Source: an uncultured Brevundimonas sp. (lineage in GTDB: Bacteria; Pseudomonadota; Alphaproteobacteria; Caulobacterales; Caulobacteraceae). From it: a stretch of 64,000 nucleotides of DNA. The notes beneath the pieces were generated by a model that saw only the letters and a list, made by a program, of their open reading frames with translations, was not told the origin of the DNA and did not search any database. A program made the translations under genes and the position numbers. This document shows, piece after piece, positions 18,001 to 56,277 of this stretch. Location: NCBI RefSeq assembly GCF_937863155.1, contig NZ_CALMFB010000054.1, positions 29,975 through 93,974 on the forward strand, given 5' to 3'. Numbering within the stretch: position 1 is the stretch's first letter; each line of letters opens with the position of its first letter.

Positions 18001-18148
18001 CGCCAATTTATTGAAATTGTATCAGAAAATATCGCCACCCCCCTTGGGGGCGGCGCGCAATTCCAAGACTGTAGCGGCGGGTCTCCGGGGCTCGCTCAAG
18101 CACGATTTAGCGAAACGTCGCCGTCTGTTGGCAGACCGACAGCGCCCA

Positions 18149-18460
18149 TCACTGATGCGGGCAGCGCGACGAAATCTTCGTTCGGCTTAGCCAGGTGATC
18201 TGATGAAAGGTGCAACAGGCGATCAATCCCTGCCAGATCGGCCCTGCGATGGCGGGCGAAAGACCGGCCGCCGCCGCCGTCGCGTGAACTTTCTCAAACA
18301 CCTGGGCGACGCGAACCGGGTCGTGAACGGCGTCCGGCAGGCCCTTTATGGCCGCCGCCTGCTCCACCAGCCTCTGCCGTTCCGCCAGCAGCCGGACAAG
18401 CCGGCGATCCACGGCGTCGATCTGAACACGCACGTCGGCCAGGGTGACAGGCGGCGTCAT
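18149..18460 (-). CDS. AroQ/PchB-type chorismate mutase
   Basis: LADVRVQIDAVDRRLVRLLAERQRLVEQAAAIK...HDPVRVAQV; overlaps the ubiV stop. Confidence 0.75.
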   Translation of the reverse strand: MTPPVTLADVRVQIDAVDRRLVRLLAERQRLVEQAAAIKGLPDAVHDPVRVAQVFEKVHATAAAAGLSPAIAGPIWQGLIACCTFHQITWLSRTKISSRCPHQ

Positions 18461-19362
18461 GACGGCACAGGTTCGACGCCGGCCTGGCCGCGCAGATAGC
18501 CGCCGATGAAAGGGGCCGGCGGCTTTGCCTGCGCCACGGCTTCATGCAGGCCTGCGGCGTCCATCCGGCCGTCCAGAAAGCCGCGAAACGCCTCCGCGAC
18601 CTGAGCCATGTCCATATGATGCGGCGACAGGCGAAGGGCCGTGACGCCCGCTGTACGCAGATCGTCGGGCGGAAGATCGGCAAGCTGAACTCCATGCGAC
18701 AGGGTCTGGACGCCGTTCACCGCCAGGAAGGCGCGGCCGTCCAGGGTCCGCAGGTCCATGCCGTCCGGGTCCTGGTCGCAGACGAAACGGCAGGCGTCCT
18801 TGTGCAGGCCGTGGCTGCGGGCATGGTAGCAGCGCCCCGACAGGGCCAGGGGCAGGCGGCCGAAGGCGAACAGCTCGATCTCCAGCCCAGGACAGGCGGC
18901 GGCGATGGCGCCGACAGCCGCCAGCGACAGCTCGACATTGGCGCACAGACGCACGCAGCCGCGCGCGATCAGTTCCTGGGCCGCCCCTTCGTTGTAGATG
19001 TTCAGCAGGGGGCCGGCCACGAACGGGCCGACGCGGTCCTTCAGGGCCGAGACGTCGTTGATCTCGATCAGGGCGTCCGTTTCGGCGGACAGGACCTTGA
19101 TCGCTTTGCGGTCACGCAGCGTCGCCGGCAGGGCCAGGCCCGACCAGACCACCGTCTTGCCCGCCTCGGTCAGTCGTTCTGCGGCTTCGGCCAGCGCATG
19201 ATCGACCAGGGGCGCGCGCTTTCCGCACACCACCTCGCCCAGATAGACGCGGTCCACCGCCGCGCAATCGGCCATGCGGGCGTAGAAATCGCGGATGCGA
19301 TCGGCGGGCCAGTGAAACAGCAAAGGGCCCAGGGCGATCTCGATACGGGTCGGATCGGTCAT
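18457..19362 (-). CDS. ubiV: O2-independent ubiquinone biosynthesis protein UbiV (U32 family)
   Basis: IALGPLLFHW...YLGEVVCGKR; LSGRCYHAR...CRFVC Fe-S cysteines; true start 19362. Confidence 0.9.
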   Translation of the reverse strand: MTDPTRIEIALGPLLFHWPADRIRDFYARMADCAAVDRVYLGEVVCGKRAPLVDHALAEAAERLTEAGKTVVWSGLALPATLRDRKAIKVLSAETDALIEINDVSALKDRVGPFVAGPLLNIYNEGAAQELIARGCVRLCANVELSLAAVGAIAAACPGLEIELFAFGRLPLALSGRCYHARSHGLHKDACRFVCDQDPDGMDLRTLDGRAFLAVNGVQTLSHGVQLADLPPDDLRTAGVTALRLSPHHMDMAQVAEAFRGFLDGRMDAAGLHEAVAQAKPPAPFIGGYLRGQAGVEPVPS

Positions 19363-20351
19363 CGCCACCTCTTGCGATAGGCGCCGGTGGTCTCGCGCCC
19401 GCCCTCGGCCAGGTCGGTCAGCAGATGCTCGTAGGCGTCGGGCGATTCCCCCCGGTCGATGGCGTCGATGGCGGCGCGGAAGGCGGCGGCGACGCGGGCG
19501 ACATAGGCCTTGCCGCGCTGGCGCCCCTCGATCTTGACCGCCGTCACGCCGGCGCGTTTCAGCCCGCCCAGCAGGCTCATGGCGTTCAGGCTGACCGGAT
19601 CCTCGAACAGATAGGACAGGACGCCCCGCGCCTCGAACCGGCCCTTGCACAAGGTGGGGTAGCCCGCCGGGTCGCCGGGGGCGTAGCGATCCATGGCGAA
19701 GCCCGCCAGGCGCGACACCAGGGCGTCTTCCTCTTCGCTGTAGGACACGGCTTCGGGCGGCGAGCAGACGCCGCACAGGTTGGGCGAACGGCCCGCCGCA
19801 TAGGAGGACAGGGCGCACCGTCCCTCGGCCATGACGCACAGGCCGCCGAAGACGAAGGCCTCGGTCTCGACCTCGATCTCGCGCATCAGGGCGGCGATCT
19901 CCTCCACGCTCAGCACACGCGGCAGGACCACACGTTTCACACCATAGGCCTGGGCGTAGAAGGCGATGGCTTCGGGCGATCCGGCCGCGGCCTGAACCGA
20001 CAGATGCAGACGAAGATGCGGCCACGCCTCGCGCGCATAGGCCAGGACGCCCAGATCGGCCACGATCACCGCATCGGCGCCCGAAGCGGCGGCGGCGTCC
20101 AGCGACCGTCGCCAGCGATCGCTGCCGCCCGCCTGGGCGAAGGTGTTCACGGCCAACAACACCCTGGCCCCGTGACGGTGCGCCCAGGCCACGCTGTCCG
20201 ACAGCTCCTGGGGTGAGAAATTCAGGCCGGGGAAATTGCGCGCATTGGTGTCGTCGCGCAGGCCGCAATAGACGCTGTCGGCGCCCGCCTCGATCGCCGC
20301 GCGCAGCATGGCGGGCGACCCGGCCGGACAGACCAGTTCGATCGAACCCAC
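19359..20351 (-). CDS. ubiU: O2-independent ubiquinone biosynthesis protein UbiU (U32 family)
   Basis: ELVCPAG...TNARNFPGLNF; GLCVMAEGRCALSSY...CS; TLCKGRF; KIEGRQR. Confidence 0.92.
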   Translation of the reverse strand: MGSIELVCPAGSPAMLRAAIEAGADSVYCGLRDDTNARNFPGLNFSPQELSDSVAWAHRHGARVLLAVNTFAQAGGSDRWRRSLDAAAASGADAVIVADLGVLAYAREAWPHLRLHLSVQAAAGSPEAIAFYAQAYGVKRVVLPRVLSVEEIAALMREIEVETEAFVFGGLCVMAEGRCALSSYAAGRSPNLCGVCSPPEAVSYSEEEDALVSRLAGFAMDRYAPGDPAGYPTLCKGRFEARGVLSYLFEDPVSLNAMSLLGGLKRAGVTAVKIEGRQRGKAYVARVAAAFRAAIDAIDRGESPDAYEHLLTDLAEGGRETTGAYRKRWR

Positions 20352-20355
20352 GCCC

Positions 20356-20889
20356 TTACCCCTCTCTTGCGCGCAGCCGCGCCAATCCCGCCGACAGCAG
20401 GGCGCCGGTCCAGCGCCGCAGCGGATCCGGCAGGGGTAACAGGTCGGCGGTCGTCAGTTCGGCCGCCTCCAGCGTATTGTGCAGGGCGACCACAGCCTGG
20501 GTGTCGCCGGTGATGCGAATGCGCCGGGCGAAGAAGGCGGCGTCGGCGTCACAGGCGCCGTCGAACAAACCGATCAGAGTGGCCAGAGGCCCCGTGATCC
20601 GCGCGGCGGAGGGCCGCGCCGCATCATGACGCTCGACCTCCACCCGGCCCGCGCCGTGACCCGGACGCAGCCGAAAGGCGACGGGAAAGTCGGACGGGGC
20701 GACCACCAGATCGACGTCATTGGCCACGCCCAGTCGCTCGAACACCTCGGGCCGGCGCCGGCCCAGCGCACGCAGGGCGGCGGTCAGCATCCGTTCCGGT
20801 GGGTGGCGCAGGGTCATCAGCACCGTGACAGCCAGGCGTTCGCCGCGACCGCGCCCGTCAGACTTTGATCGACGCCGCCAGCCGCTCAC
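20356..20889 (-). CDS. ubiT: SCP2-domain accessory factor UbiT
   Basis: RRPEVFERLG...DADAAFFARRIRITGDTQAVVALHNTLE; GTGA overlap with the upstream stop; start uncertain. Confidence 0.82.
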   Translation of the reverse strand: MSGWRRRSKSDGRGRGERLAVTVLMTLRHPPERMLTAALRALGRRRPEVFERLGVANDVDLVVAPSDFPVAFRLRPGHGAGRVEVERHDAARPSAARITGPLATLIGLFDGACDADAAFFARRIRITGDTQAVVALHNTLEAAELTTADLLPLPDPLRRWTGALLSAGLARLRAREG

Positions 20890-22655
20890 GCCGCCGCCTC
20901 CAGGCCGGGGGCGATCTGACGCGCAATCAGATCGGCGAACTCCTGGAACAGGGTGTCGCGCGCGGCGGGGGCCGCCCAATAGGGGGTCATGAAGACGCAT
21001 CGGATCAGCACCAGGCCCGAGGCGTCGACTGTCCCGTTCCATCCCGCGACGTGCCGGGCGATGGCCGCCTTGCTGGTCGCGCCCAGGGTGGTCCGGGACA
21101 CCGAAAAGGTCGGCGACCTGTGAATGTCGTCGAACAGGGCCAGGGTCTGCTGATTGACGACCGACAGAGGCTGTCCCTCGGCCGCGATGCAGAAACAGGC
21201 GATGTTGCTGTCGACCGGGGCCAGGAAACGGGCCTGGGGAACCCGCGATCCGATGGCGGCCTGGAAGGCGCGGCGCACGGCGATCGTCTCGGCCAGGACC
21301 GCGCCCAGGCCCTCGGCGCAGAAGCCCAGGGTGCGCCCGGTCAGCCAGGTCGCCGCCGCCCCCGCCGCCGACCGCGATCCCTCCAGCGTCGAGGACCATT
21401 TGCCGTCGCCCAGCTCGGGGCGGTCCAGATAGGGCGCATCGAAGGTCGACACGGCATAGGCGACCGCATCGCGGGTCAGAAAGGCCCCGCAGGCATAGGG
21501 GGTATAGCCCAGCTTGTGCGGGTCGATGGTCAGGGACTCGGCCCGGCCCATGGCCGCCAGGGCCGTGCGGGTGCGGTCGTCGAAGGCCGCGCCGTCCAGG
21601 TCGATGGCCCGAAGGAAGCCGCCATAGGCCGCGTCCACGTGGCTCCAGACATGCAGGCCGTGTTCGCGCCGCAGGTCGTCCAGACGCGCCTGCCACCGGT
21701 CCATGGGGTCGATCTGGCCCGTCTCGGTCGTCCCGGCCACGGCGACCGTCATCAGGATCGGCCGGGCCTCGTCGCGGGCGCGCTGGATCAGCCGGTCCAG
21801 ATCGTCCAGGTCCATGCGGCCTTGGTCGTCCAGGGCGACGCTCCACAGCGAATCCTCGCCCAGCCCGAAGATGTTGACCGCCTTGCGCCACGAATAATGC
21901 GCCGCGCCGGGCGCCAGCAGCACCGGCCCGCGCCACGGCTGGGGCGTCAGACGGTCGATCCGTCGCCAGATGTCCATGGGGTTGCCCGCCGCCGCGCGTT
22001 CCGGGCGCAGGATGTCCTCGCTCAGGTCGTGCGCGGCCCACAGGCGGCGGAACGCGCCCCATCCCATGTGGGCGTCGGCGAACACGTCCAGCGGGCGGCC
22101 CTTCGTCTCGGCCAGGTGAAGCGCCAGTCCCAGCCACAGGTCCATGCGGTGCCGCGCGCGCCAGACGGCCTCCAGATTGGCGACCGTGCCGCCCGAGGTG
22201 AAATGCCCCTGGGCCGCGTCGGGATCGTAGCCCAGCATGCGCGCCAGCATGGCGATGGCCTCGGTCTCGATCACCGTGCCGACGCGGCTGGCCTCGCGCG
22301 AGGTGTTGTTGGGATTGTGCAGCATGGCCGCCAGCCAGCCCATCAGGGCCGGGGTCGAGATGTCGGCCTTCATGTGGCTGATGTACCGGGGGGTGCAGGT
22401 GGGCGTCTCGCTGGTCATCGCCCGGCACAGGGCGTCCAGTTCCACCGCCAGCTTGTCGCGCTGGGCGCCGGCGGCCGGGGAAACCGTCGTGGTGATGGCC
22501 GCGTCCTGGGGGAACAGGCTGCGCCGCCAGTTGAACCAGGCGTCCAGGACATGCCCCAGCGACGTCCGCATCCAGGCTTCGTTCTCGCCGTGCGGGCCTG
22601 GAAAATAGGCGCCGGCCAGATCCAGCGGCGAAGGGGCGGCGGGCGATGCGGTCAT
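20886..22655 (-). CDS. Group II PLP-dependent amino-acid decarboxylase
   Basis: RYISHM...NPNN..REAS, GHFTSGGTVAN, HYSWRK, AGTTETGQID, HVDAAYGG, SLTIDPHKLGY (PLP lysine). Confidence 0.88.
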   Translation of the reverse strand: MTASPAAPSPLDLAGAYFPGPHGENEAWMRTSLGHVLDAWFNWRRSLFPQDAAITTTVSPAAGAQRDKLAVELDALCRAMTSETPTCTPRYISHMKADISTPALMGWLAAMLHNPNNTSREASRVGTVIETEAIAMLARMLGYDPDAAQGHFTSGGTVANLEAVWRARHRMDLWLGLALHLAETKGRPLDVFADAHMGWGAFRRLWAAHDLSEDILRPERAAAGNPMDIWRRIDRLTPQPWRGPVLLAPGAAHYSWRKAVNIFGLGEDSLWSVALDDQGRMDLDDLDRLIQRARDEARPILMTVAVAGTTETGQIDPMDRWQARLDDLRREHGLHVWSHVDAAYGGFLRAIDLDGAAFDDRTRTALAAMGRAESLTIDPHKLGYTPYACGAFLTRDAVAYAVSTFDAPYLDRPELGDGKWSSTLEGSRSAAGAAATWLTGRTLGFCAEGLGAVLAETIAVRRAFQAAIGSRVPQARFLAPVDSNIACFCIAAEGQPLSVVNQQTLALFDDIHRSPTFSVSRTTLGATSKAAIARHVAGWNGTVDASGLVLIRCVFMTPYWAAPAARDTLFQEFADLIARQIAPGLEAAA

Positions 22656-22687
22656 GGGCGGTGCGTTCTCTGGCGTCGGTTGGGGGA

Positions 22688-23131
22688 TCACTGGGGCCGG
22701 GTGACGATCCAGGCGCCGACGCCGGTCAGGATCGGCGCAACACCGGCCAGGACCAGGACGGGCAGGCCCAGCCCCGCCATCGTCAGCCAGCTGCACGCCA
22801 GGCTGGCGACCGCGATCTGTTTGGCGCGGCGCGGAATGGCGCGACGGGCGCGCCAGTCGGCGATCAGCGGCCCCAGCCAGCGGTGGCCGCGCAGCCAGGC
22901 CTCCAGGCGGGGCGAAGACCGGGCGAAGGCCCAGACGGCGACCAGGGCGAACGGCGTCGCCGGCAACAGCGGCAGCATCACCCCCAGGATCGCCAGGGCG
23001 GCGGCGATCCAGCCCAGCAGCAACAGCATCACCCGGCCGCTGTGCGCCTGGCGCGCGCCGGGCCGACAATGACACTCGCTAAAGCCGCACAGGTCGTAGG
23101 GCGCGTCGCGTTCAACGGAGTCGTGGCTCAT
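22688..23131 (-). CDS. YbaN/DUF454 inner membrane protein
   Basis: GVMLPLLPATPFALVA.WAFARSSPRLEAWL..HRWLGPLIADW; start 23131 or 23029. Confidence 0.85.
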   Translation of the reverse strand: MSHDSVERDAPYDLCGFSECHCRPGARQAHSGRVMLLLLGWIAAALAILGVMLPLLPATPFALVAVWAFARSSPRLEAWLRGHRWLGPLIADWRARRAIPRRAKQIAVASLACSWLTMAGLGLPVLVLAGVAPILTGVGAWIVTRPQ

Positions 23132-23168
23132 CACCGCCAAAGGATCAGGCCGCGCGCGCCGGAACGCT

Positions 23169-23182
23169 TTGCGACGCATCAA
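23169..23182. promoter_or_regulatory. FNR/FixK-type box upstream of the ybaN-ubi operon
   Basis: TTGCG-ACGC-ATCAA (one perfect half site). Confidence 0.6.
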
Positions 23183-23304
23183 TTGCGACTGCGTGAAAGG
23201 GTCGCAGGACGGCTGGCGAAAGGCCGCGCCGTCTCGTACGATTCCCGACGGAGGCCGTTTTGCAGATCACCGCTCTAACAGGCGTCCGGCATGAGTGGAT
23301 ACGC

Positions 23305-24777
23305 ATGCTGGATCGAAGGCGGCCCTATGCGGCTCTGGCCGTGGCGGGCGTCGGCGCGCTTCTGGGCCTGCTCGTGCGGCTGGCGATGTCGGGCTATCTG
23401 GCCGACCGGGTCGCCTTTCTGTTCTTCATTCCGGGGATGCTGGCGGCGGCGGCGCTGGGCGGCGTCTTTCCGGGATTCGCCGCCACGATCCTGGGCGCCG
23501 CCGGGGCCGCCTTCATCACCTGGCGGATGGGATCGCATGGGGCGGGCGACGCGGCGGCGGTGCTGGTCTTCGTCATGCTGGGCATGGGCATCAGCGCGGC
23601 CGGCGAGGTGTTCCAGAGACTGCGCGACCAGGGGCTGGCGGCCCGGCGCGATCTGCACGCGAGAGAGGCGCACCTGCGTTCGATCCTGGACACGGTGCCG
23701 GACGCCATGGTCGTGATCGACGAGCGCGGCCTGATGCAGTCCTTCAGCCCCGCCGCCGAACGGATGTTCGGCTGGACCGCGGCGGAAATGATCGGCCGCA
23801 ACGTCAAGGTGCTGATGCCAGACCCGTACCGCACGGCGCACGACGGTTTCCTGACGCGTTATCTGACCACGGGCGAGCGCCGCATCATCGGCATCGGGCG
23901 CGTGGTGGTGGGCGAACGCAAGGACGGCTCGACCTTCCCGCTGGAGCTGGCGGTCGGCGAAATGGTGTCCGAGGGCCAGCGCTTCTTCACCGGCTTCATC
24001 CGCGACCTGACCGAACGGCAGAAGACCGAGACGCGGCTGCAGGAACTGCAGACCGAGCTGATCCATATCTCGCGCCTGACGGCCATGGGGGAAATGGCCT
24101 CGGCCCTGGCGCACGAACTGAACCAGCCCCTGTCGGCCACGGCCAACTATCTGAAGGGGTCCGTCAGGTTGCTGGACCAGGCCGACCTGCCCCGCGACCG
24201 GCTGGAGGACGCCCTGACCAAGGCCGGCGAACAGGTGCTGCGCGCCGGCGACATCATCCGGCGGCTGCGCGATTTCGTCTCGCGCGGCGAAACCGAACGG
24301 CGTCAGGAGAGCCTGGGCAAGCTGATCGAGGAAGCCGCCGCCCTGGCTCTTGTCGGGGCCAAGGATCATGGCGTGCACGTGCGGTTCGCGCTGGACCCCT
24401 CGGTGGATCGGGCGCTGGTCGATCGCGTGCAGATCCAGCAGGTGATGCTGAACCTGATCCGCAACGCCATCGAGGCCATGGACGAGGTGCAGGGGCCACG
24501 GTCCCTGTCGATCCATCTGGAACCCGGACCGCCCGGAATGGCGCAGGTCATGGTAGCCGATACCGGCCCCGGCGTCAGCGAGGCCGTGACCGCCCAGCTG
24601 TTCCAGCCCTTCATCACCAGCAAGCCGACCGGCATGGGCGTCGGGCTGTCGATCAGCCGCACCATAATCGAGGCCCACGGTGGGCGAATCTGGGTCGAGA
24701 CGCCTAGTGAAGGCGGGGCGCGTTTCTGCTTCACCCTGCCGATGAGCCGAGAGGAGGATTTGGGCGATGACCGATAG
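23305..24777 (+). CDS. fixL: Heme-PAS oxygen sensor kinase FixL
   Basis: N-terminal TMs; PAS ...[37 protein letters not shown]; H-box LAHELNQPL; [18 protein letters not shown]. Confidence 0.93.
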
Positions 24778-25381
24778 GCCGGTGATCCATGTCGTCGACG
24801 ACGATCCGGCCATGCGCGACTCGCTGGCCTTCCTGCTGGAAGCCGCCGGACTGCAACCCCGGCTTTATGAATCCGGTCTGGCGCTGTTGGGGTCCGTGGC
24901 CGAAGGCGAGCTTGAGGACGGGTGCATCCTGACCGACGTCCGCATGCCGGGCATGGACGGGCTGGATCTGGTGCGACGCCTGATCCAGCGCGGCGTCCCC
25001 CAGCCGATCATCGTCATGACGGGCCATGCCGACGTGCCCCTGGCGGTCGAGGCGATGCGGGCGGGGGTGGCGGATTTCATCGAGAAGCCGTTCGACGACG
25101 TGACGCTGATGGCCGCCATCGAGCGAGCCATGAACGGTGTCGGCGCGCCGCCTCCCACCCGCGTCGATCAGGACGTGCGCGCGCGCCTGGACGCCCTGTC
25201 GTCGCGCGAACGTCAGGTGCTGGACGGACTGGTGGCCGGTCAGGCGAACAAGGCCATCGCCTTCGACCTGGGCATCAGCGCACGCACGGTCGAAGTCTAT
25301 CGCGCCAATGTCATGACCAAGATGCAGGCCCGCAGCCTGCCCGAGCTGATCCGCATGGCCTTGCTGGGCCGCCGGTCATAG
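24767..25381 (+). CDS. fixJ: Response regulator FixJ
   Basis: REC plus LuxR HTH; [11 protein letters not shown]; [19 protein letters not shown]. Confidence 0.93.
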
Positions 25382-25765
25382 GCGCGGCTGCAGCGCCCGC
25401 CGCACCGCCGTCAGCAGGGCGTCGCTGAGCAGGGGCTTTTCGACGATCGGCGTCCCGCAGGCCGCCGCCCGCGCGCGCAGGGCCGGACCGGGATTGCTGG
25501 TCACCAATATGGCCGGAAGACGCACCGCCGCCGCGCGAAGACGGCCCAGCAGGCTGAGCCCGTCCATGCCGGGCAGGTGATGGTCCAGCACCAGACAGCC
25601 GTGTTCGGGAAGCGCCCCCGCCGCCAGCAGCGTCTCGGCGTCGCCATAGGCGCGGACATCCAGACCCTCCAGCCCGAACGAAAACGCCAGCGCGTGCGCC
25701 AGGGCTTCGTCGTCATCCACCAGGATGACGATGGGACGCACGGGCACGGGCGCGGGCGCGCTCAT
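25376..25765 (-). CDS. Single-domain receiver protein (FixT-like)
   Basis: LVDDDE...CLVLDHHLPGMDG...IVEKP; ATGA-coupled to fixK. Confidence 0.8.
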   Translation of the reverse strand: MSAPAPVPVRPIVILVDDDEALAHALAFSFGLEGLDVRAYGDAETLLAAGALPEHGCLVLDHHLPGMDGLSLLGRLRAAAVRLPAILVTSNPGPALRARAAACGTPIVEKPLLSDALLTAVRRALQPRL

Positions 25766-26457
25766 TCCCGCAGCGCTTCGAGACGGTCGCGACGCAGCAG
25801 GCGCACATGCCGGCTGGACCGCGCCGCGATCAGCCCCTCGGCCTGCAACTGCGACAGGGTGCGCGAGACGGTGTGAATGGTCAGGCCCAGATGGTCGGCG
25901 ATGTCCTGGCGGCTCATGGGCAGGTCGATCACATCGGCCGCCTCGACCCGGTCGGCATAGTCCAGCAGGAAGGTGGCGACCCGCTCGGTCGCGCCCTGGC
26001 GCGCCAGGATCATGGCGTGGTCCTCGCTGCGCTGGAAGGCGCGCAGCGACATCCGCCACAGCGCGCGCGTCAGCCCGCCATCGATCGCCGCCAGGGCCGA
26101 CAGCCGGGCGCGACGCAGCACCGAGGCCGTCACCGGCCCCAGCGCCTGGGCATGGGTGCGATAGTCGACGCTGGCCTCCAGCCCCAGGAAATCACCCGGC
26201 AGATAGAAGCCCGTCACCTGCCGGCGCCCATCGGCGTACAGCCGATAGGTGATCACCGCGCCCTCGCTGATGCGATAGACGAAGGACGCCGGCTCGCCGG
26301 GGCTGAAGATATCCTCGCCGGCGGCGAAATGCGCGTGGGCGGCCGAACGATCCATGAAGGCCGCCGCCAGCTCGCACGGCTTGTGCGCAGCATTGATGCT
26401 GGGCGCGGCGGGTGGCGCATAGGTCGGACGGTAAGCGACGGATTGAACGCCAGCCAT
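25762..26457 (-). CDS. fixK: Crp/Fnr regulator, FixK-like (no N-terminal Cys cluster)
   Basis: DGRRQVTGFYLPGDFLG; LPMSRQDIADHLGLTIHTVSR; adjacent to fixLJ. Confidence 0.8.
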   Translation of the reverse strand: MAGVQSVAYRPTYAPPAAPSINAAHKPCELAAAFMDRSAAHAHFAAGEDIFSPGEPASFVYRISEGAVITYRLYADGRRQVTGFYLPGDFLGLEASVDYRTHAQALGPVTASVLRRARLSALAAIDGGLTRALWRMSLRAFQRSEDHAMILARQGATERVATFLLDYADRVEAADVIDLPMSRQDIADHLGLTIHTVSRTLSQLQAEGLIAARSSRHVRLLRRDRLEALRE

Positions 26458-48602: not shown

Positions 48603-48616
48603 TTGATGAAGATCAA
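48603..48616. promoter_or_regulatory. Perfect FNR box upstream of the Moco riboswitch/moaA
   Basis: (GC)TTGAT-GAAG-ATCAA(GC); overlaps the nnrS stop. Confidence 0.85.
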
Positions 48617-52650: not shown

Positions 52651-52664
52651 TTGACCGCCATCAA
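52651..52664. promoter_or_regulatory. FNR-type box between divergent nrdD and ric
   Basis: TTGAC-CGCC-ATCAA. Confidence 0.75.
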
Positions 52665-52718: not shown

Positions 52719-53222
52719 ATGACCCTGGAAGCCACAGCGCCGGACCGACCGGACACGATGTCCGAAGCGTCGATGCCGACGCCGGCGCTGATCGCGCACA
52801 TCCTGGAACGCTATCATCAGACCCATAGGCGCGAGCTGCCCGAACTGATCGAACTGGCGCGCAAGGTCGAACGCGTCCACCGCCGGCATCCGCAGGCGCC
52901 GCTGGGGATGGGCGACCTGCTGGCCCTGATCGCGGACGATCTGGAAATGCACCAGCAGAAGGAGGAGCAGATTCTGTTCCCGATGATGCTGAACGCGGCC
53001 GGTCCGATGGTGCATCACCCCATCGCCCGCATGATGATCGAGCACGAGGACGTCGAGGCCCAGCTGGCGGTGCTGGACGAGATGAGCGACGGCCTGACCC
53101 CGCCCGCCAACGCCTGCGGTTCGTGGCGCAGGCTGTACGAAGGATGTCGGAAATTCCGCGAAGACCTGCGCGCTCACATCCGCATCGAGGACACGGTTCT
53201 GTTCCCGCGTTTCCTCGATTGA
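52719..53222 (+). CDS. Ric/YtfE-like di-iron hemerythrin protein (no N-terminal ScdA domain)
   Basis: LIAHILERYHQTHRRELP, HQQKEEQILFP, MMIEHE, HIRIED.VLFP. Confidence 0.85.
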   Translation: MTLEATAPDRPDTMSEASMPTPALIAHILERYHQTHRRELPELIELARKVERVHRRHPQAPLGMGDLLALIADDLEMHQQKEEQILFPMMLNAAGPMVHHPIARMMIEHEDVEAQLAVLDEMSDGLTPPANACGSWRRLYEGCRKFREDLRAHIRIEDTVLFPRFLD

Positions 53223-53307: not shown

Positions 53308-54504
53308 TTAAAGGGCGAGCACTTCGACCCTCTCGCCCGCCCCGGCTCCGGAGTCTCCGGCGCGGCGGCGGATCAGGACATCGCTGTCGGCCAGTGTCTT
53401 CTGGGCGCCCGAATCCTGATTGCTCGCCGGCATGACCCGGCCATCGGCCAGGCGCCGTCCACGCAGGAATGTCTCGCGCTCGCCGGTCGCCGGGACATCG
53501 CCCGCCAGTTCGGCCCAGGCCCAGGCCAGGGCGGTGCGCGGCTCGCCGCCCGCCAGGCCGTGCAAAAGCGGGGCCAGAAACAGCCGCGCCGTCACCAGGG
53601 CCGAGGTCGGATTGCCCGGCAGGCCGACCACCAGCCGCCCCCCTGCCCGGCCGATCCACACCGGCTTGCCCGGCTTGATGGCGACCTTGGAGAAGACCAG
53701 GTCCAGACCGGACGGCCCGAACATGGCCCGCGCGTGATCGCGTTCCCCCACCGAGGCGCCGCCGGTCACCACCACCACATCGGCCAGCGACAGGGCCTGG
53801 GCCGCGACGGCTTCCAGGGCGGCGGGATCGTCGGGCGCGCGGCGACGGCCCACGACCTCGGCGCCCCATTGGCGAGCCAGGGCCATGACCCCGAACGACA
53901 CGCTTTCGGGAATGGCGCCCAGCGTCTGGCGGGCCCTGCCCGGTTCGGCCAGTTCGTCGCCGGTGCCCACGACCATCAGACGGGGGCGGCGCACCACATT
54001 CACCCGATCTTGGTCGGCCGAGGCGGCGGCGACCATTGCCTGGGGCGTCAGCGTCGCGCCGGCTTTCAACAGCACATCCCCAGCCCGGAAGTCCGAACCG
54101 CGCTCGCGCACATGGCGGCCCTTGCCCGGCGCGGTCGAAAAGACCGCGTGACCGTCATCCTGGGTCACCTGTTCCTGCACCACGACCCGGTCGGCCCCCT
54201 CGGGCGTCGGGGCGCCGGTGAAGATGCGTGCGCAGGTTCCCGGAAGAAGAGGCGCAGGATCGGCGCGCCCGGCGTAGATCGTATCGACGATCGGCAGCCG
54301 CGCCGGCAGGACCGCCAGATCGGCGTCCCGGACCGCATAGCCGTCCATGGCCGAAACCGCGCGCCACGGTGCATCCGCGAACGCCGTCACGGGGGCGGCC
54401 AGCACCCGGCCGCAGGCGTCGGCCAGAAGCGCATCTTCGGCCTCCAGCGGTTGCGCCAGCCCCAGCACCAGAGCGGCGGCGTCATCGAAATCGATCATGG
54501 CCAA
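53308..54504 (-). CDS. moeA: Molybdopterin molybdotransferase
   Basis: [43 protein letters not shown]. Confidence 0.95.
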
Positions 54505-54986
54505 ACCTCATCCGGCGCCCGCCATTCGCCCGACCGGCCGCCGGACTTCAGCACCAGCCGCACCTGATCCAGACGCATGGCGCGGTCCACGGCTTTCAGC
54601 ATGTCGTACAGGGTCAGGCCCGCGACCGAGGCGGCCGTCAGGGCCTCCATCTCGACCCCCGTGACGCCCACGGTGACCGTCTCCGCCTCGATGCGGAAAC
54701 CGGGCAGGTCGCGGTCGGGCGTGATCGTGACCGCCGCCTTGGACAACGGCAGGGGATGACACAGGGGGATCAGGTCGGCGGTGCGCTTGGCCGCCATAAC
54801 GCCCGCCAGCTCGGCGGTCTGTATCACCGCCCCCTTGGGCGCGCGGCCTTCCAGAACCAGGGCCAGGGTCTCGGGGCGGCAATGCAGATCGGCGCGGGCG
54901 ACGGCGCGGCGCGCGCTGGGCGCCTTGGCCGAGACATCGACCATCCGCGCCCGCCCCTCGGTGTCCAGATGCGTCAGGCCGCTCAT
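54495..54986 (-). CDS. moaC: cPMP synthase
   Basis: [47 protein letters not shown]. Confidence 0.96.
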
Positions 54987-55519
54987 GGGCAGATGCCCCG
55001 ACAGCGCGGGATCTGGCCAACCAGCGAACAGGGGCGGAAGCGGCTGTCCAGTTCGGCGTCCAGCACCAGATCCCAGGCGTCGCGACAGGCGCCGGTCGAA
55101 CCGGGCACGCAGAAGATGAAGGTCTCGCCCGCCTGGCCGGCCAGGGCCCGTGATTGCAGGGTGGCGACGCCGACGGTGGTCTGGCTGGCCTGATGGAACA
55201 CCACCGAAAAGCCGTCCATCACCCGGTCCAGCAGCGGGCGCACCGCCTCGGGCGTCACATCACGCGGGGCGAACCCCGTGCCGCCGGTGGTCAGGATCAC
55301 ATCCACGCCCGGATCGGCGATCCAGTCGCGCAGCCGGGCCTGGATGGCCGGAACCTCGTCCTTGACGATGGCGCGGTCGGCCAGGGCATGGCCCGCCCCC
55401 GTCAGCCGGTCGATCAGCAGACCGCCCGAGGTGTCGGTGCTTTCGTCCCGCGTGTCCGAAATCGTCATCACCGCGATGTTCAGCGGCAGGAAGTCAAAGC
55501 GGTCGTCGATGCCGGCCAT
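54983..55519 (-). CDS. moaB: Molybdenum cofactor biosynthesis protein B
   Basis: [44 protein letters not shown]. Confidence 0.93.
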
Positions 55520-55520
55520 G

Positions 55521-55991
55521 TCAGTCGCTCCAGCGGGCCAGCGCGGCCCCATCTTGCTCAGTGGGTTCGATCCAGCGGCCGCCATCGGGGCCGCTTTCGT
55601 GTTTCCAGAACACCGCCTCGCTCTTGAGCCGGTCCATCAGGTAATCGGCCGCCTGGAAGGCCTCGCGCCGGTGCGGCGATGCGGCGGCGGCGAAGACGAT
55701 GGTGTCGCCCGGCGCCATGCAGCCACAGCGATGCACCACATAGACCGCCGTGACGGGGAACCGGTCCAGCGCATCCTGGGCGATCCGCTGCAAAGACTGT
55801 TCGGTCAGGCGCGGATGCCAGTCCAGCCGCAGTTCATCGACGCGCGCGCCATCCTTGGCCCGGTCACGCGCCAGTCCGGTGAAGGCGACGATGGCCCCAT
55901 CGACCCCGCGCGCGGCGCAGGTCTGGGTGAAGTCGTTCAGTTCGTCGCCCGCATCCAGAAAGCGGTGCTCCAGCCTGGAAACCGCCGCCAT
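55521..55991 (-). CDS. moaE: Molybdopterin synthase catalytic subunit
   Basis: GAIVAFTG.AR, VVHRCG, HRREAFQAADYLMDRLKSEAVFWKHE. Confidence 0.93.
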   Translation of the reverse strand: MAAVSRLEHRFLDAGDELNDFTQTCAARGVDGAIVAFTGLARDRAKDGARVDELRLDWHPRLTEQSLQRIAQDALDRFPVTAVYVVHRCGCMAPGDTIVFAAAASPHRREAFQAADYLMDRLKSEAVFWKHESGPDGGRWIEPTEQDGAALARWSD

Positions 55992-55992
55992 C

Positions 55993-56277
55993 TCAGCCCC
56001 CCGAAAAGGTCGAGAAAAACAGGACGGTCTGGCCCGGCTTCACCGTGGCGCTGTCGGCAAACACCTGGTCGTCGACGCCGCCGCGTACGGAGGGGTCCAG
56101 CAGGATTTCACCGCCTTCGCCGGCCAGGCTCTGCGCTAGCCGCTGCCGCAGGGCGCCCAGGGTCAGCCCCTGGGCGGGCGCCGCGCAAAGCTGTTCGGCG
56201 CCGAAGACATCGGACGGGCGACCAAAGAACTGGACCCGGATGCCCGGCCCCGCCTGTTCCGTTTCCGACTTGCGCAT
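55993..56277 (-). CDS. moaD: Molybdopterin synthase sulfur carrier
   Basis: Ubiquitin-like; VQFFG; C-terminal FSGG. Confidence 0.88.
   Translation of the reverse strand: MRKSETEQAGPGIRVQFFGRPSDVFGAEQLCAAPAQGLTLGALRQRLAQSLAGEGGEILLDPSVRGGVDDQVFADSATVKPGQTVLFFSTFSGG

What the first reader, a model, noticed from the sequence alone, without database searches (positions are those of the whole stretch)
20886..23182. PLP-dependent decarboxylase and YbaN embedded at the head of the anaerobic ubiquinone operon
Seen: FNR-type box, ybaN, a 589-aa group II decarboxylase, then ubiT with GTGA coupling to the decarboxylase stop. No amino-acid/amine antiporter is adjacent. Established: group II enzymes act on amino acids (Tyr, Glu, Asp and others) and are not part of the known ubiquinone pathway, whose decarboxylation uses UbiD/UbiX. 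Inference: it could feed the ring precursor from an aromatic amino acid, act on an amino-substituted intermediate, or serve proton consumption or CO2 supply. The role is unknown.
Basis: partly seen in the sequence, partly recalled or inferred. Interest (0 to 1): 0.65.

Follow-up and report, generated by a model that had tools for sequence, protein, structure and literature searches.

The report
Low-oxygen decarboxylase fused to ubiquinone operon
A tyrosine-decarboxylase-like enzyme really does sit at the head of this Brevundimonas operon for oxygen-free ubiquinone synthesis, but relatives show it is an independent, unstudied gene of the low-oxygen and nitric-oxide response, so it is probably not a step of ubiquinone synthesis.

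Summary
On the minus strand lie a Crp/FNR-type box (23169-23182), ybaN/DUF454, a 589-aa group II PLP decarboxylase (20886-22655), ubiT, ubiU, ubiV, a chorismate mutase and a terminator.

The enzyme has the long tyrosine-decarboxylase architecture (TM 0.85 to Enterococcus TyrDC). All catalytic residues are present, and it scores far below the TyrDC equivalog cut-off.

The linkage to ubiTUV is not unique. It recurs in at least five arrangements in Brevundimonas-like Caulobacterales (41 of 73 loci within 10 kb).

The gene is nevertheless separable from ubiTUV:
- Nine distinct genomes, three of them isolates, have it without any ubiU.
- 20 of 34 ubiU-positive relatives lack it.
- Near-identical copies are followed either by ubiTUV-CM or directly by nirK.
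- A sister clade fuses it to moaD-moaE.
- More distant members sit beside nirK, nnrS or hemN.

Members down to about 49% identity carry their own FNR/FixK/NnrR-type box. This genome has UbiD and UbiX, so no substitute ring decarboxylase is needed. It lacks a Pfam-type UbiC.

Best reading: a decarboxylase of the low-O2/NO regulon, co-transcribed here with ubiTUV through shared regulation. Its substrate and physiological role remain unknown.

The parts
23169..23182 (.). Crp/FNR-family box TTGATGCGTCGCAA (minus-strand reading). One half is FNR/FixK-type (TTGAT) and the other NnrR-type (CGCAA). It lies in the fixL-ybaN divergent region, about 140-150 nt upstream of the ybaN core.
   Evidence: Clade-A relatives carry TTGCGCCCGCGCAA-type boxes at the equivalent position, -124 to -166. 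Consensus sequences come from PMC6710368 and PMC1274295.
22688..23032 (-). ybaN, a DUF454 small inner-membrane protein. This is the Pfam-supported core; the longest ORF runs to 23182.
   Evidence: PF04304 114.5 bits. Gene call in L081.
20886..22655 (-). Group II PLP-dependent decarboxylase of the long TyrDC-type architecture, 589 aa (P0001). Key residues: K381 (Schiff base), H253, D341, Y344, Y387, and the loop residue Y409.
20356..20889 (-). ubiT (SCP2 accessory factor). The start is either the GTG overlapping the decarboxylase stop, or GTG 20823, or ATG 20817.
   Evidence: NF047962 54.6 bits against a cut-off of 46.9. Sequence.
19359..20351 (-). ubiU (U32 Fe-S hydroxylase subunit).
   Evidence: NF047963 504.9 bits against a cut-off of 440.
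18457..19362 (-). ubiV (U32 Fe-S hydroxylase subunit). It overlaps ubiU and the chorismate mutase gene by 4 nt each.
   Evidence: NF047965 338.1 bits against a cut-off of 275.
18149..18460 (-). AroQ-type chorismate mutase (CM_2), the last gene of the operon.
   Evidence: PF01817 59.4 bits.
18033..18055 (-). Intrinsic-terminator-like hairpin (10 pairs, 9 of them G-C) followed by a T-run, placed after the chorismate mutase gene.
23260..25381 (+). fixL-fixJ oxygen-sensing two-component system, divergent from ybaN.
   Evidence: Pfam domains in the L081 gene calls. 66-69% identity to the FixL found next to the same island in relatives.
25762..26457 (-). Crp/FNR-family regulator (FixK-like), the candidate reader of the box.
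   Evidence: cNMP_binding + HTH_Crp_2.

Best explanation
The gene encodes a cytoplasmic, amine-forming L-amino-acid decarboxylase of the tyrosine-decarboxylase type. Its most likely substrate is an aromatic amino acid such as Tyr or Phe.

It belongs to the low-oxygen/nitric-oxide regulon (FixLJ-FixK/NnrR type) of Brevundimonas-like Caulobacterales. In this genome a single Crp/FNR-type box upstream of ybaN probably drives one transcript: ybaN, decarboxylase, ubiT, ubiU, ubiV, chorismate mutase.

The junction with ubiTUV is an operon fusion between two modules that share a regulator. It is not a biochemical pathway. The decarboxylase works independently of O2-independent ubiquinone synthesis.

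Shown:
- the enzyme class and intact catalytic residues;
- operon anatomy;
- conserved regulatory boxes;
- separability from ubiUV.

Inferred:
- the activating regulator;
- co-transcription;
- the aromatic substrate.

Guess (about 0.2 on its own): the physiological role is to consume a cytoplasmic proton and make a membrane-permeant amine during anoxic nitrate/nitrite respiration. In that state nitrite, free nitrous acid and NO stress the cell. This genome has nar but no detectable nirK or norB. YbaN may act as a membrane helper.
For: Enzyme class:
- PF00282 hit and a best NCBIfam match to TyrDC.
- Best PDB sequence hits are PcncAAAD, L. brevis TDC and E. faecalis TyrDC.
- AF2 model pLDDT 92. 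Full-length Foldseek TM is 0.84-0.86 to those three, against about 0.6 for other group II enzymes.
- K381, H253, D341, G308, T310, E311, Y387 and Y409 are invariant in 107 homologues; Y344 is invariant among the 12 closest.
- Pocket loops mapped in LbTDC are nearly the same: VAGSTE/VAGTTE and HKMGYVPY/HKLGYTPY.

Regulon:
- 69 of 168 loci have a TTG[AC]N6[TG]CAA box within 350 nt upstream, against about 0.02 expected per locus.
- These fall into at least 8 different sequence/position classes, including perfect NnrR-type and perfect FNR-type boxes.
- 69 of 73 close loci lie within 10 kb of nnrS, norB, nirK, hemN, nrdJ, moa, ytfE, fixL or ubiU.

Independence from ubiquinone synthesis:
- UbiD and UbiX are present.
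- In 301 family genomes there are 17 DC+ and 34 UbiU+, with an overlap of 14. The overlap with NnrS is also 14 of 17.
- 8 of 12 further DC+ genomes have no ubiU, including B. denitrificans, B. aveniformis and Peiella sedimenti.
- Within one 100%-supported clade, DC is followed either by ubiTUV-CM-nirK or directly by nirK.
- Clade B fuses DC to moaD-moaE-mog-moaC-moeA.

Operon:
- Gene gaps run from -4 to +32 nt.
- There is no other box upstream of ubiT.
- A terminator is found only after the chorismate mutase gene.
Against: - Co-transcription and regulation rest on sequence alone.
- The repeated, differently arranged adjacency to ubiTUV-CM (directly upstream, downstream, convergent, divergent, or 6 kb away) is more than one would expect from a random island neighbour. 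It could reflect a real functional tie.
- Notes from other windows of this scan report other group II decarboxylases beside ubiTUV/CM in unrelated genomes (untested here).
- The substrate is not determined. The score against the TyrDC equivalog is 193, with a cut-off of 905.
- The proton-consumption role lacks the usual antiporter.
- The box could also serve the divergent fixL promoter.
Confidence: 0.45

Rival explanations
1. Ubiquinone helper. The decarboxylase manages the aromatic pool around UbiUV. It would remove Phe/Tyr to relieve feedback inhibition of the shikimate pathway, so that chorismate, prephenate (the O donor) and 4-hydroxybenzoate stay available under anoxia. Alternatively it would dispose of Phe formed from the phenylpyruvate by-product.
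For: - It is adjacent to ubiTUV-CM in at least five arrangements.
- 14 of 17 DC+ genomes have ubiU.
- Prephenate is the O donor, and phenylpyruvate is the proposed by-product (PMC10990095).
- The fold and pocket are aromatic-type.
- Scan notes report CM-decarboxylase coupling next to ubiT in another genome (untested).
Against: - Nine distinct DC+ genomes lack ubiU.
- 20 of 34 UbiU+ genomes lack DC.
- UQ flux is tiny relative to aromatic amino-acid pools (inference).
- Distant members with FNR boxes sit by nirK, nnrS or hemN without ubiTUV.
Confidence: 0.15
2. Signal amine. The enzyme makes phenethylamine, tyramine or a similar amine as an intracellular or extracellular cue. The cue would switch behaviour (motility, attachment) when oxygen runs out. 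Proteus mirabilis DisA is the analogy, and that comparison rests on my own recollection only.
For: - It is a stand-alone enzyme with its own O2/NO-responsive box and no fixed metabolic partner.
- The fold is aromatic-type.
Against: - No receptor or regulator gene co-varies with it.
- It is fused to cofactor operons rather than to regulatory genes.
Confidence: 0.1
3. Cofactor-linked PLP chemistry. The protein would serve maturation of anaerobic respiratory enzymes (Moco, Fe-S or heme-copper). It might supply a small molecule or act other than as a simple decarboxylase.
For: - In clade B it sits 2-5 nt upstream of moaD in 31 of 38 loci.
- Neighbours include hemN, nrdJ and a PTPS-like gene.
- Scan notes report two further Moco-linked cases (untested).
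Against: - No step of Moco, heme or Fe-S synthesis needs an amino-acid decarboxylase (established pathways).
- All decarboxylase catalytic residues are intact, including the loop Tyr.
- In this genome the moa genes lie 30 kb away.
Confidence: 0.08
4. First step of an O2-independent route from tyrosine to 4-hydroxybenzoate (the UQ ring) in UbiC-less Caulobacterales. It would act together with a TPP enzyme, a DAO-type flavoenzyme, an FAD-linked oxidase and an MdlD-like aldehyde dehydrogenase.
For: - There is no PF04345 UbiC in this genome or in the Caulobacter control.
- L092 carries DC-TPP-DAO-FADox-ubiT-U-V on one strand.
- L087 and L105 have ubiVUT-TPP(-DAO) divergent from DC.
- L086 and L145 have GlcD-like, PRK07586 TPP and MdlD-like genes upstream of DC.
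Against: - This genome has none of those extra enzymes.
- 94% of family genomes make UQ without DC.
- DC occurs without ubiU.
- No known route leads from tyramine to 4-hydroxybenzoate.
Confidence: 0.05
5. Substitute for UbiD/UbiX: it would decarboxylate the prenylated ring, or an amino-substituted intermediate, under anoxia.
For: - It lies next to ubiT.
- The alternative UbiB-dependent decarboxylation is O2-dependent, and few UbiDX-less genomes have UbiUVT (bioRxiv 10.64898/2026.03.05.709815).
Against: - UbiD and UbiX are both present.
- Group II enzymes need an alpha-amino acid (established).
- The pocket is TyrDC-like.
Confidence: 0.02

Closest known systems
Bacterial tyrosine decarboxylase TyrDC/TDC of Enterococcus faecalis and Lactobacillus brevis (PDB 7CWX-7CX1, 5HSI/5HSJ)
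   Same: - Same long three-domain architecture over the whole length (TM 0.84-0.85).
- Same PLP residues (Lys, His, Asp).
- Nearly identical pocket loops.
   Different: - Only 24-26% identity.
- Scores 193 bits against the 905-bit equivalog cut-off.
- No tyrP antiporter, tyrS or nhaC.
- Placed under a Crp/FNR-type box within respiratory and cofactor operons rather than an acid-stress operon.
Psilocybe cubensis non-canonical aromatic amino-acid decarboxylase PcncAAAD (PDB 6EBN)
   Same: It is the best sequence hit in the PDB (1e-61) and has TM 0.86. The N-terminal domain and the catalytic-loop Tyr are shared.
   Different: The fungal enzyme is 1013 aa and has an extra C-terminal domain that is absent here.
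O2-independent ubiquinone hydroxylation system UbiT-UbiU-UbiV, with prephenate as O donor (PMC10990095)
   Same: The decarboxylase shares an operon and a putative promoter with bona fide ubiT, ubiU, ubiV and a chorismate mutase.
   Different: The described system has no decarboxylase component. Phyletic data show the two are separable.
NnrR/FixK2 regulons of denitrifying Alphaproteobacteria (nirK, nor, nnrS, hemN; PMC1274295, PMC6710368)
   Same: The same box types lie upstream (TTGCG-N4-CGCAA and TTGA/C-N6-T/GCAA). The same neighbours are present: nnrS, norB, nirK, hemN and pseudoazurin.
   Different: No PLP decarboxylase is listed in those regulon papers. Regulation here is predicted only.
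UbiD/UbiX ring decarboxylase of ubiquinone synthesis
   Same: Both release CO2, and both can be found clustered with ubiTUV in some bacteria.
   Different: The fold, cofactor (prFMN against PLP) and substrate class are unrelated. Both UbiD and UbiX are present elsewhere in this genome.

Membership tests
Group II PLP-dependent amino-acid decarboxylases (PF00282) | Profile match above the curated cut-off. | tested here: met
   95.7 bits against a cut-off of 27.
Group II PLP-dependent amino-acid decarboxylases (PF00282) | The PLP-binding Lys in the D-x-H-K motif, the His that stacks on the ring, and the Asp that binds the pyridine N. | tested here: met
   K381 in TIDPHK, H253 and D341 align to K392, H241 and D328 of LbTDC. 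They are invariant in 107 sequences.
Group II PLP-dependent amino-acid decarboxylases (PF00282) | A Tyr on the mobile catalytic loop. Amine-forming decarboxylases have Tyr there, whereas aldehyde synthases have Phe. | tested here: met
   Y409 is invariant in 107 sequences and sits in the only low-confidence loop of the model, residues 401-425. The Tyr/Phe rule is established knowledge and was not tested here.
Long TyrDC-type subfamily (Enterococcus/Lactobacillus TDC, PcncAAAD) | Full-length structural match including the N- and C-terminal domains. | tested here: met
   TM 0.84-0.86, against about 0.6 for other group II enzymes.
Tyrosine decarboxylase equivalog TIGR03811 (same function as enterococcal TyrDC) | Score above the equivalog cut-off. 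| tested here: not met
   193 bits against a cut-off of 905.
Tyrosine decarboxylase equivalog TIGR03811 (same function as enterococcal TyrDC) | Activity on L-tyrosine. | not testable with these tools
   This needs an enzyme assay. Pocket-loop similarity is suggestive only.
Amino-acid-dependent acid-resistance / proton-motive decarboxylation system | An adjacent substrate/product antiporter. | tested here: not met
   No APC-type or other amino-acid transporter appears in the gene calls around the locus or its relatives.
O2-independent ubiquinone pathway (UbiTUV module) | Co-inheritance with ubiU/ubiV. | tested here: not met
   Nine distinct DC+ genomes have no ubiU, and 20 of 34 UbiU+ genomes have no DC.
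O2-independent ubiquinone pathway (UbiTUV module) | A pathway step that is otherwise unfilled in the genome. | tested here: not met
   UbiD (271.8 bits) and UbiX (221.4 bits) are present. UbiC is absent, but UbiC is a lyase and catalyses no decarboxylation.
FixK/NnrR (Crp/FNR-family) low-O2/NO regulon | A consensus binding site in the promoter region, conserved in orthologous loci. | tested here: met
   The box lies at 23169-23182. 69 of 168 loci carry a box, in at least 8 distinct classes.
FixK/NnrR (Crp/FNR-family) low-O2/NO regulon | Induction by low O2 or NO that depends on the regulator. | not testable with these tools
Reporter fusions or RNA-seq are needed.

The most novel reading that the evidence does not exclude
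In UbiC-less Caulobacterales the decarboxylase opens an oxygen-independent route from tyrosine to 4-hydroxybenzoate, the ubiquinone ring precursor. The proposed order is decarboxylation, benzylic hydroxylation with water by an FAD-linked oxidase, amine oxidation, TPP-dependent C-C cleavage, and aldehyde oxidation. The full gene set would be seen in loci such as L092, L087 and L086, and this genome would keep only the first enzyme.
Probability: 0.05. Interest if true: 0.8.

Novelty: new variant of a known kind. Interest (0 to 1): 0.42.

Why it matters
Tyrosine-decarboxylase-type enzymes are known from lactic acid bacteria as acid-stress and biogenic-amine systems paired with an antiporter. Here the same enzyme type has no antiporter. 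It carries oxygen/NO-responsive promoter boxes and is fused to operons for anaerobic ubiquinone or molybdenum-cofactor synthesis in many Brevundimonas-like bacteria. These include denitrifiers common in wastewater and soil.

No paper found in the searches made here (full-text library; 9 of the 10 allowed) describes such a gene in FixK, NnrR or FNR regulons. If it does protect or tune cells during nitrate/nitrite respiration, it would be a new accessory function of denitrification, and a source of aromatic amines in anoxic habitats.

For ubiquinone research the main value is negative. This gene is unlikely to be the missing anaerobic pathway component. The ubiTUV-chorismate mutase block behaves as a movable cassette.

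Tried and rejected
1. Substitute for UbiD/UbiX: rejected, because both are present.
2. YbaN as an obligate partner: rejected. DUF454 is in 98 of 301 family genomes. Clade-B DC+ genomes of the same genus lack it, and nnrS-ybaN pairs exist without DC.
3. Classical acid-resistance cassette: no antiporter in any context.
4. De novo clustering of neighbour ORFs. It was swamped by high-GC shadow ORFs. For distant members it yielded only Crp/FNR regulators, hemN, a TonB receptor, an SDR, DUF1697 and an AlgE-like porin, with no fixed metabolic partner.
5. The TPP/DAO/FAD-oxidase module seen with DC in other genera is absent from this genome.
6. Exact look-up of the L055 protein failed because of the start-codon choice.
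8. Literature searches for a PLP decarboxylase in NnrR, FixK or FNR regulons, or beside ubiTUV, found nothing.
9. The Acidobacteriota/Gemmatimonadota relatives (about 30% identity) and the 37-43% identity class have no anaerobic context and no box. I treat them as different subfamilies.
10. Rhodoquinone (RquA) was not tested.
Full report
**Anatomy**

The window is about 70% G+C. It lies in contig C54 of a 2.79-Mb, 99.6%-complete genome.

The minus strand reads, in order:
- a Crp/FNR-type box at 23169-23182;
- ybaN/DUF454 (core 22688-23032);
- a 32-nt gap;
- the 589-aa decarboxylase (20886-22655);
- ubiT, opening at a GTG that overlaps the decarboxylase stop (in-frame GTG 20823 and ATG 20817 are alternatives);
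- ubiU, 4 nt later;
- ubiV and an AroQ chorismate mutase, each overlapping the previous gene by 4 nt;
- a strong terminator-like hairpin at 18033-18055.

fixL-fixJ diverge from ybaN, and a FixK-like regulator follows. UbiT, UbiU and UbiV pass their NCBIfam equivalog cut-offs. Between the terminator and fixL, the only FNR-like sites are the one upstream of ybaN and one inside ubiV. ubiTUV therefore has no box of its own here.

**What the enzyme is**

- Pfam places it in PF00282. The best NCBIfam model is enterococcal tyrosine decarboxylase, but at 193 bits against a 905-bit cut-off.
- The best solved relatives by sequence are the Psilocybe non-canonical aromatic amino-acid decarboxylase (1e-61), L. 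brevis TDC and E. faecalis TyrDC.
- An AlphaFold model built on 107 homologues has pLDDT 92 and pTM 0.91.
- The model matches those three over its full length (TM 0.84-0.86). All other group II decarboxylases reach only about 0.6.
- K381 (Schiff base), H253, D341, Y387 and Y409 are invariant across the 107 sequences; Y344 is invariant among the 12 closest. Y409 sits on the one flexible loop.
- The loops that mutagenesis showed to line the LbTDC pocket are almost unchanged: HMNSET/HMKADI, VAGSTE/VAGTTE and HKMGYVPY/HKLGYTPY.

It is therefore an intact, amine-forming decarboxylase of the TyrDC type, probably acting on an aromatic amino acid. It is not an equivalog of TyrDC.

**Is the link to ubiTUV real?**

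It is not strain-specific. In 80 genome loci and 80 metagenome loci I mapped neighbours by tblastn and by gene calls with Pfam. The arrangements found are:
1. ybaN-DC-ubiT-U-V-CM (this window and at least 12 loci);
2. ubiTUV-CM-ybaN-DC;
3. DC convergent with CM-ubiVUT;
4. DC-moaD-moaE-mog-moaC-moeA, ytfE, nrdJ, ubiTUV-CM, nnrS (a sister clade at 57-60% identity);
5. ubiVUT divergent from DC;
6. DC-TPP enzyme-DAO-FAD oxidase-ubiTUV (L092);
7. fixJL | AOX-hemN-norB-nnrS-ybaN-DC-nirK with no ubiTUV;
8. no anaerobic context at all (L082).

Among loci with at least 8 kb of flank, ubiU lies within 10 kb in the following numbers:

| Identity class | Loci with ubiU within 10 kb |
|---|---|
| At least 60.5% | 18 of 35 |
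| 56.5-60.5% | 23 of 38 |
| 48-56% | 1 of 23 |
| Below 48% | 0 of 27 |

**Is the link functional?**

Several results say the decarboxylase is separable from ubiTUV.

- In 301 genomes of the family, 17 carry DC, 34 carry UbiU and 55 carry NnrS. DC overlaps UbiU in 14 of 17, and NnrS in 14 of 17 as well. 20 UbiU-positive genomes lack DC.
- Of 12 further DC-positive genomes in which ubiTUV is not adjacent, 8 have no ubiU anywhere.
- After removing duplicates, nine distinct genomes have DC without ubiU. Three are isolates: B. denitrificans NBRC 110107, B. aveniformis DSM 17977 and Peiella sedimenti XZ-24.
- On the protein tree, one 100%-supported clade of six near-identical sequences contains both DC-ubiTUV-CM-nirK and DC-nirK loci. 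In clade B the same cassette is present or absent between nrdJ and nnrS. ubiTUV-CM thus behaves as a movable cassette next to a stable DC.
- The window's own sequence pairs with L098, where the cassette is convergent rather than downstream.
- This genome has UbiD and UbiX, so it needs no alternative ring decarboxylase.
- It has no PF04345 UbiC, and neither does the Caulobacter control. The source of 4-hydroxybenzoate in this order is therefore open. However, 94% of family genomes make do without DC.

**What is common to the family**

The neighbours are hypoxia and denitrification genes: nnrS, norB, nirK, hemN, nrdJ, ytfE, moa, pseudoazurin, fixLJ and fixK. At least one of the nine markers scored for this tally lies within 10 kb in 69 of the 73 close loci. 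More distant members (49-56% identity) sit next to nirK, nnrS, hemN, ccoN or Crp/FNR regulators.

The gene, or ybaN-DC, also carries its own Crp/FNR-type box in 69 of 168 loci, where about 0.02 per locus is expected by chance.
- Clade A has TTGCGCCCGCGCAA at -124 to -166. This is the NnrR consensus ctTTGcgnnnncgCAAag (PMC1274295). It resembles the boxes of NnrR-dependent norE, hemN2 and nnrR in Bradyrhizobium (PMC6710368).
- This window has a hybrid, TTGATGCGTCGCAA, at the equivalent position.
- Clade B has TTGACAGTTGGCAA at -77.
- Other lineages have perfect FNR boxes, such as TTGATGTTTATCAA at -45.
- The 37-43% identity class and the Acidobacteriota relatives have none.

The different sequences and positions make these at least eight independent observations.

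**Partner proteins**

DUF454 is frequent in the family (98 of 301 genomes) and is not tied to DC. Clade-B DC-positive genomes of the same genus lack it, and nnrS-ybaN pairs occur without DC. No transporter is adjacent in any context examined.

**Interpretation**

The best-supported reading is that the decarboxylase is a self-standing member of the low-O2/NO regulon. It has repeatedly been fused to other regulon operons: ubiTUV-CM here, moa in the sister clade, and nnrS or nirK elsewhere.

What it does for the cell is not shown. I commit, with low confidence, to cytoplasmic proton consumption and amine formation during nitrate/nitrite respiration. This genome has nar and nnrS, but tblastn finds no nirK or norB, so nitrite and free nitrous acid would accumulate.

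The main rival is a helper role around the prephenate and aromatic pool of UbiUV. The repeated re-creation of adjacency keeps that rival alive, as do notes from other windows describing other group II decarboxylases beside ubiTUV/CM and Moco operons (I tested only the Moco-linked type, in clade B).

A bolder reading is a tyrosine-to-4-hydroxybenzoate route, with the TPP, DAO, FAD-oxidase and MdlD-like genes seen in L092, L087, L086 and L145. It is not excluded. It is unlikely for this genome, which lacks those genes.

**Literature**

Prephenate as the O donor, with phenylpyruvate as the proposed by-product, explains the chorismate mutase but not a PLP enzyme. The 2026 preprint on UbiB-dependent, O2-dependent decarboxylation shows why an anaerobic decarboxylase would be interesting in UbiDX-less genomes. 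This genome is not one of them. No paper found describes this decarboxylase family.

**Limits**

- No expression data could be obtained.
- Many loci are MAG or metagenome contigs.
- Related loci are not independent samples.
- The substrate is inferred from loop similarity only.

Noticed in passing
L001/L007/L013 versus L002/L003/L015; L107 versus L031/L113: The ubiT-ubiU-ubiV-chorismate mutase block is present or absent as one cassette between otherwise collinear genes: DC and nirK in one clade, nrdJ and nnrS in the other. This holds even among near-identical decarboxylases, so the block behaves as a movable module.
   Followed up: partly
L092:4578-13903; L087:5527-9734; L105; L086:1797-8080; L145: In other Caulobacteraceae genera, several further genes are packed with DC and ubiTUV. 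They are an uncharacterised TPP enzyme, a DAO-type flavoenzyme and an FAD-linked (GlcD-like) oxidase. In some loci an MdlD-like aldehyde dehydrogenase and a PRK07586 TPP enzyme are added. The set looks like a small aromatic side-chain-shortening pathway.
   Followed up: partly
whole genome G000: There is no Pfam-type chorismate lyase UbiC in this genome or in the Caulobacter vibrioides control. The origin of 4-hydroxybenzoate for ubiquinone in this order is not explained by the canonical enzyme.
   Followed up: partly
G000 C61:23415-23684, with a fixK-like gene at C61:37303-37944 and hemN at C61:44310-45623: A second CM_2 chorismate mutase paralogue, 51% identical to the operon copy, lies on another contig near a second Crp/FNR regulator and hemN.
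   Followed up: no
L086:9247-9777; L098:~6194; L101:~14670; L109; L145: A 176-aa gene of the 6-pyruvoyl-tetrahydropterin synthase family (PF01242) recurs in the island. It sits either just upstream of the clade-B decarboxylase or next to ubiT. In L053 a GTP cyclohydrolase I gene lies about 0.7 kb upstream of DC on the opposite strand.
   Followed up: no
window 19058-19071: An FNR-like site, TTGATCTCGATCAG (9 of 10 consensus positions), lies inside ubiV, about 600 nt upstream of the chorismate mutase start. It may be chance or an internal promoter.
   Followed up: no
window 52651-52664 and 48603-48616: Two perfect TTGA-N6-TCAA boxes. One lies about 55 nt upstream of the ytfE/RIC-like gene (52719-53222, plus strand). 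The other lies just beyond the nnrS stop.
   Followed up: no
L121/L123/L124:8623-10008; L096:4179-5618; L002, L004, L013: A signal-peptide-bearing protein of about 400 aa ends in an aromatic residue and has no Pfam hit. It looks like an outer-membrane beta-barrel and recurs near the decarboxylase. In L121-L124 it is divergently adjacent.
   Followed up: partly
Literature: PMC6710368, table of NnrR-dependent genes: The Bradyrhizobium diazoefficiens NnrR/FixK2-dependent gene list contains bll7628-bll7627, with bll7628 annotated 'sterol-binding protein', behind a FixK-type box. This looks like ubiT, followed by its downstream operon partner bll7627 whose annotation I did not see. If so, anaerobic ubiquinone genes are in that regulon too.
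   Followed up: no
window 53320-56240 (-): This genome's moaD-moaE-mog-moaC-moeA cluster lies 30 kb from the decarboxylase. In the sister clade the decarboxylase is the first gene of that same cluster.
   Followed up: partly
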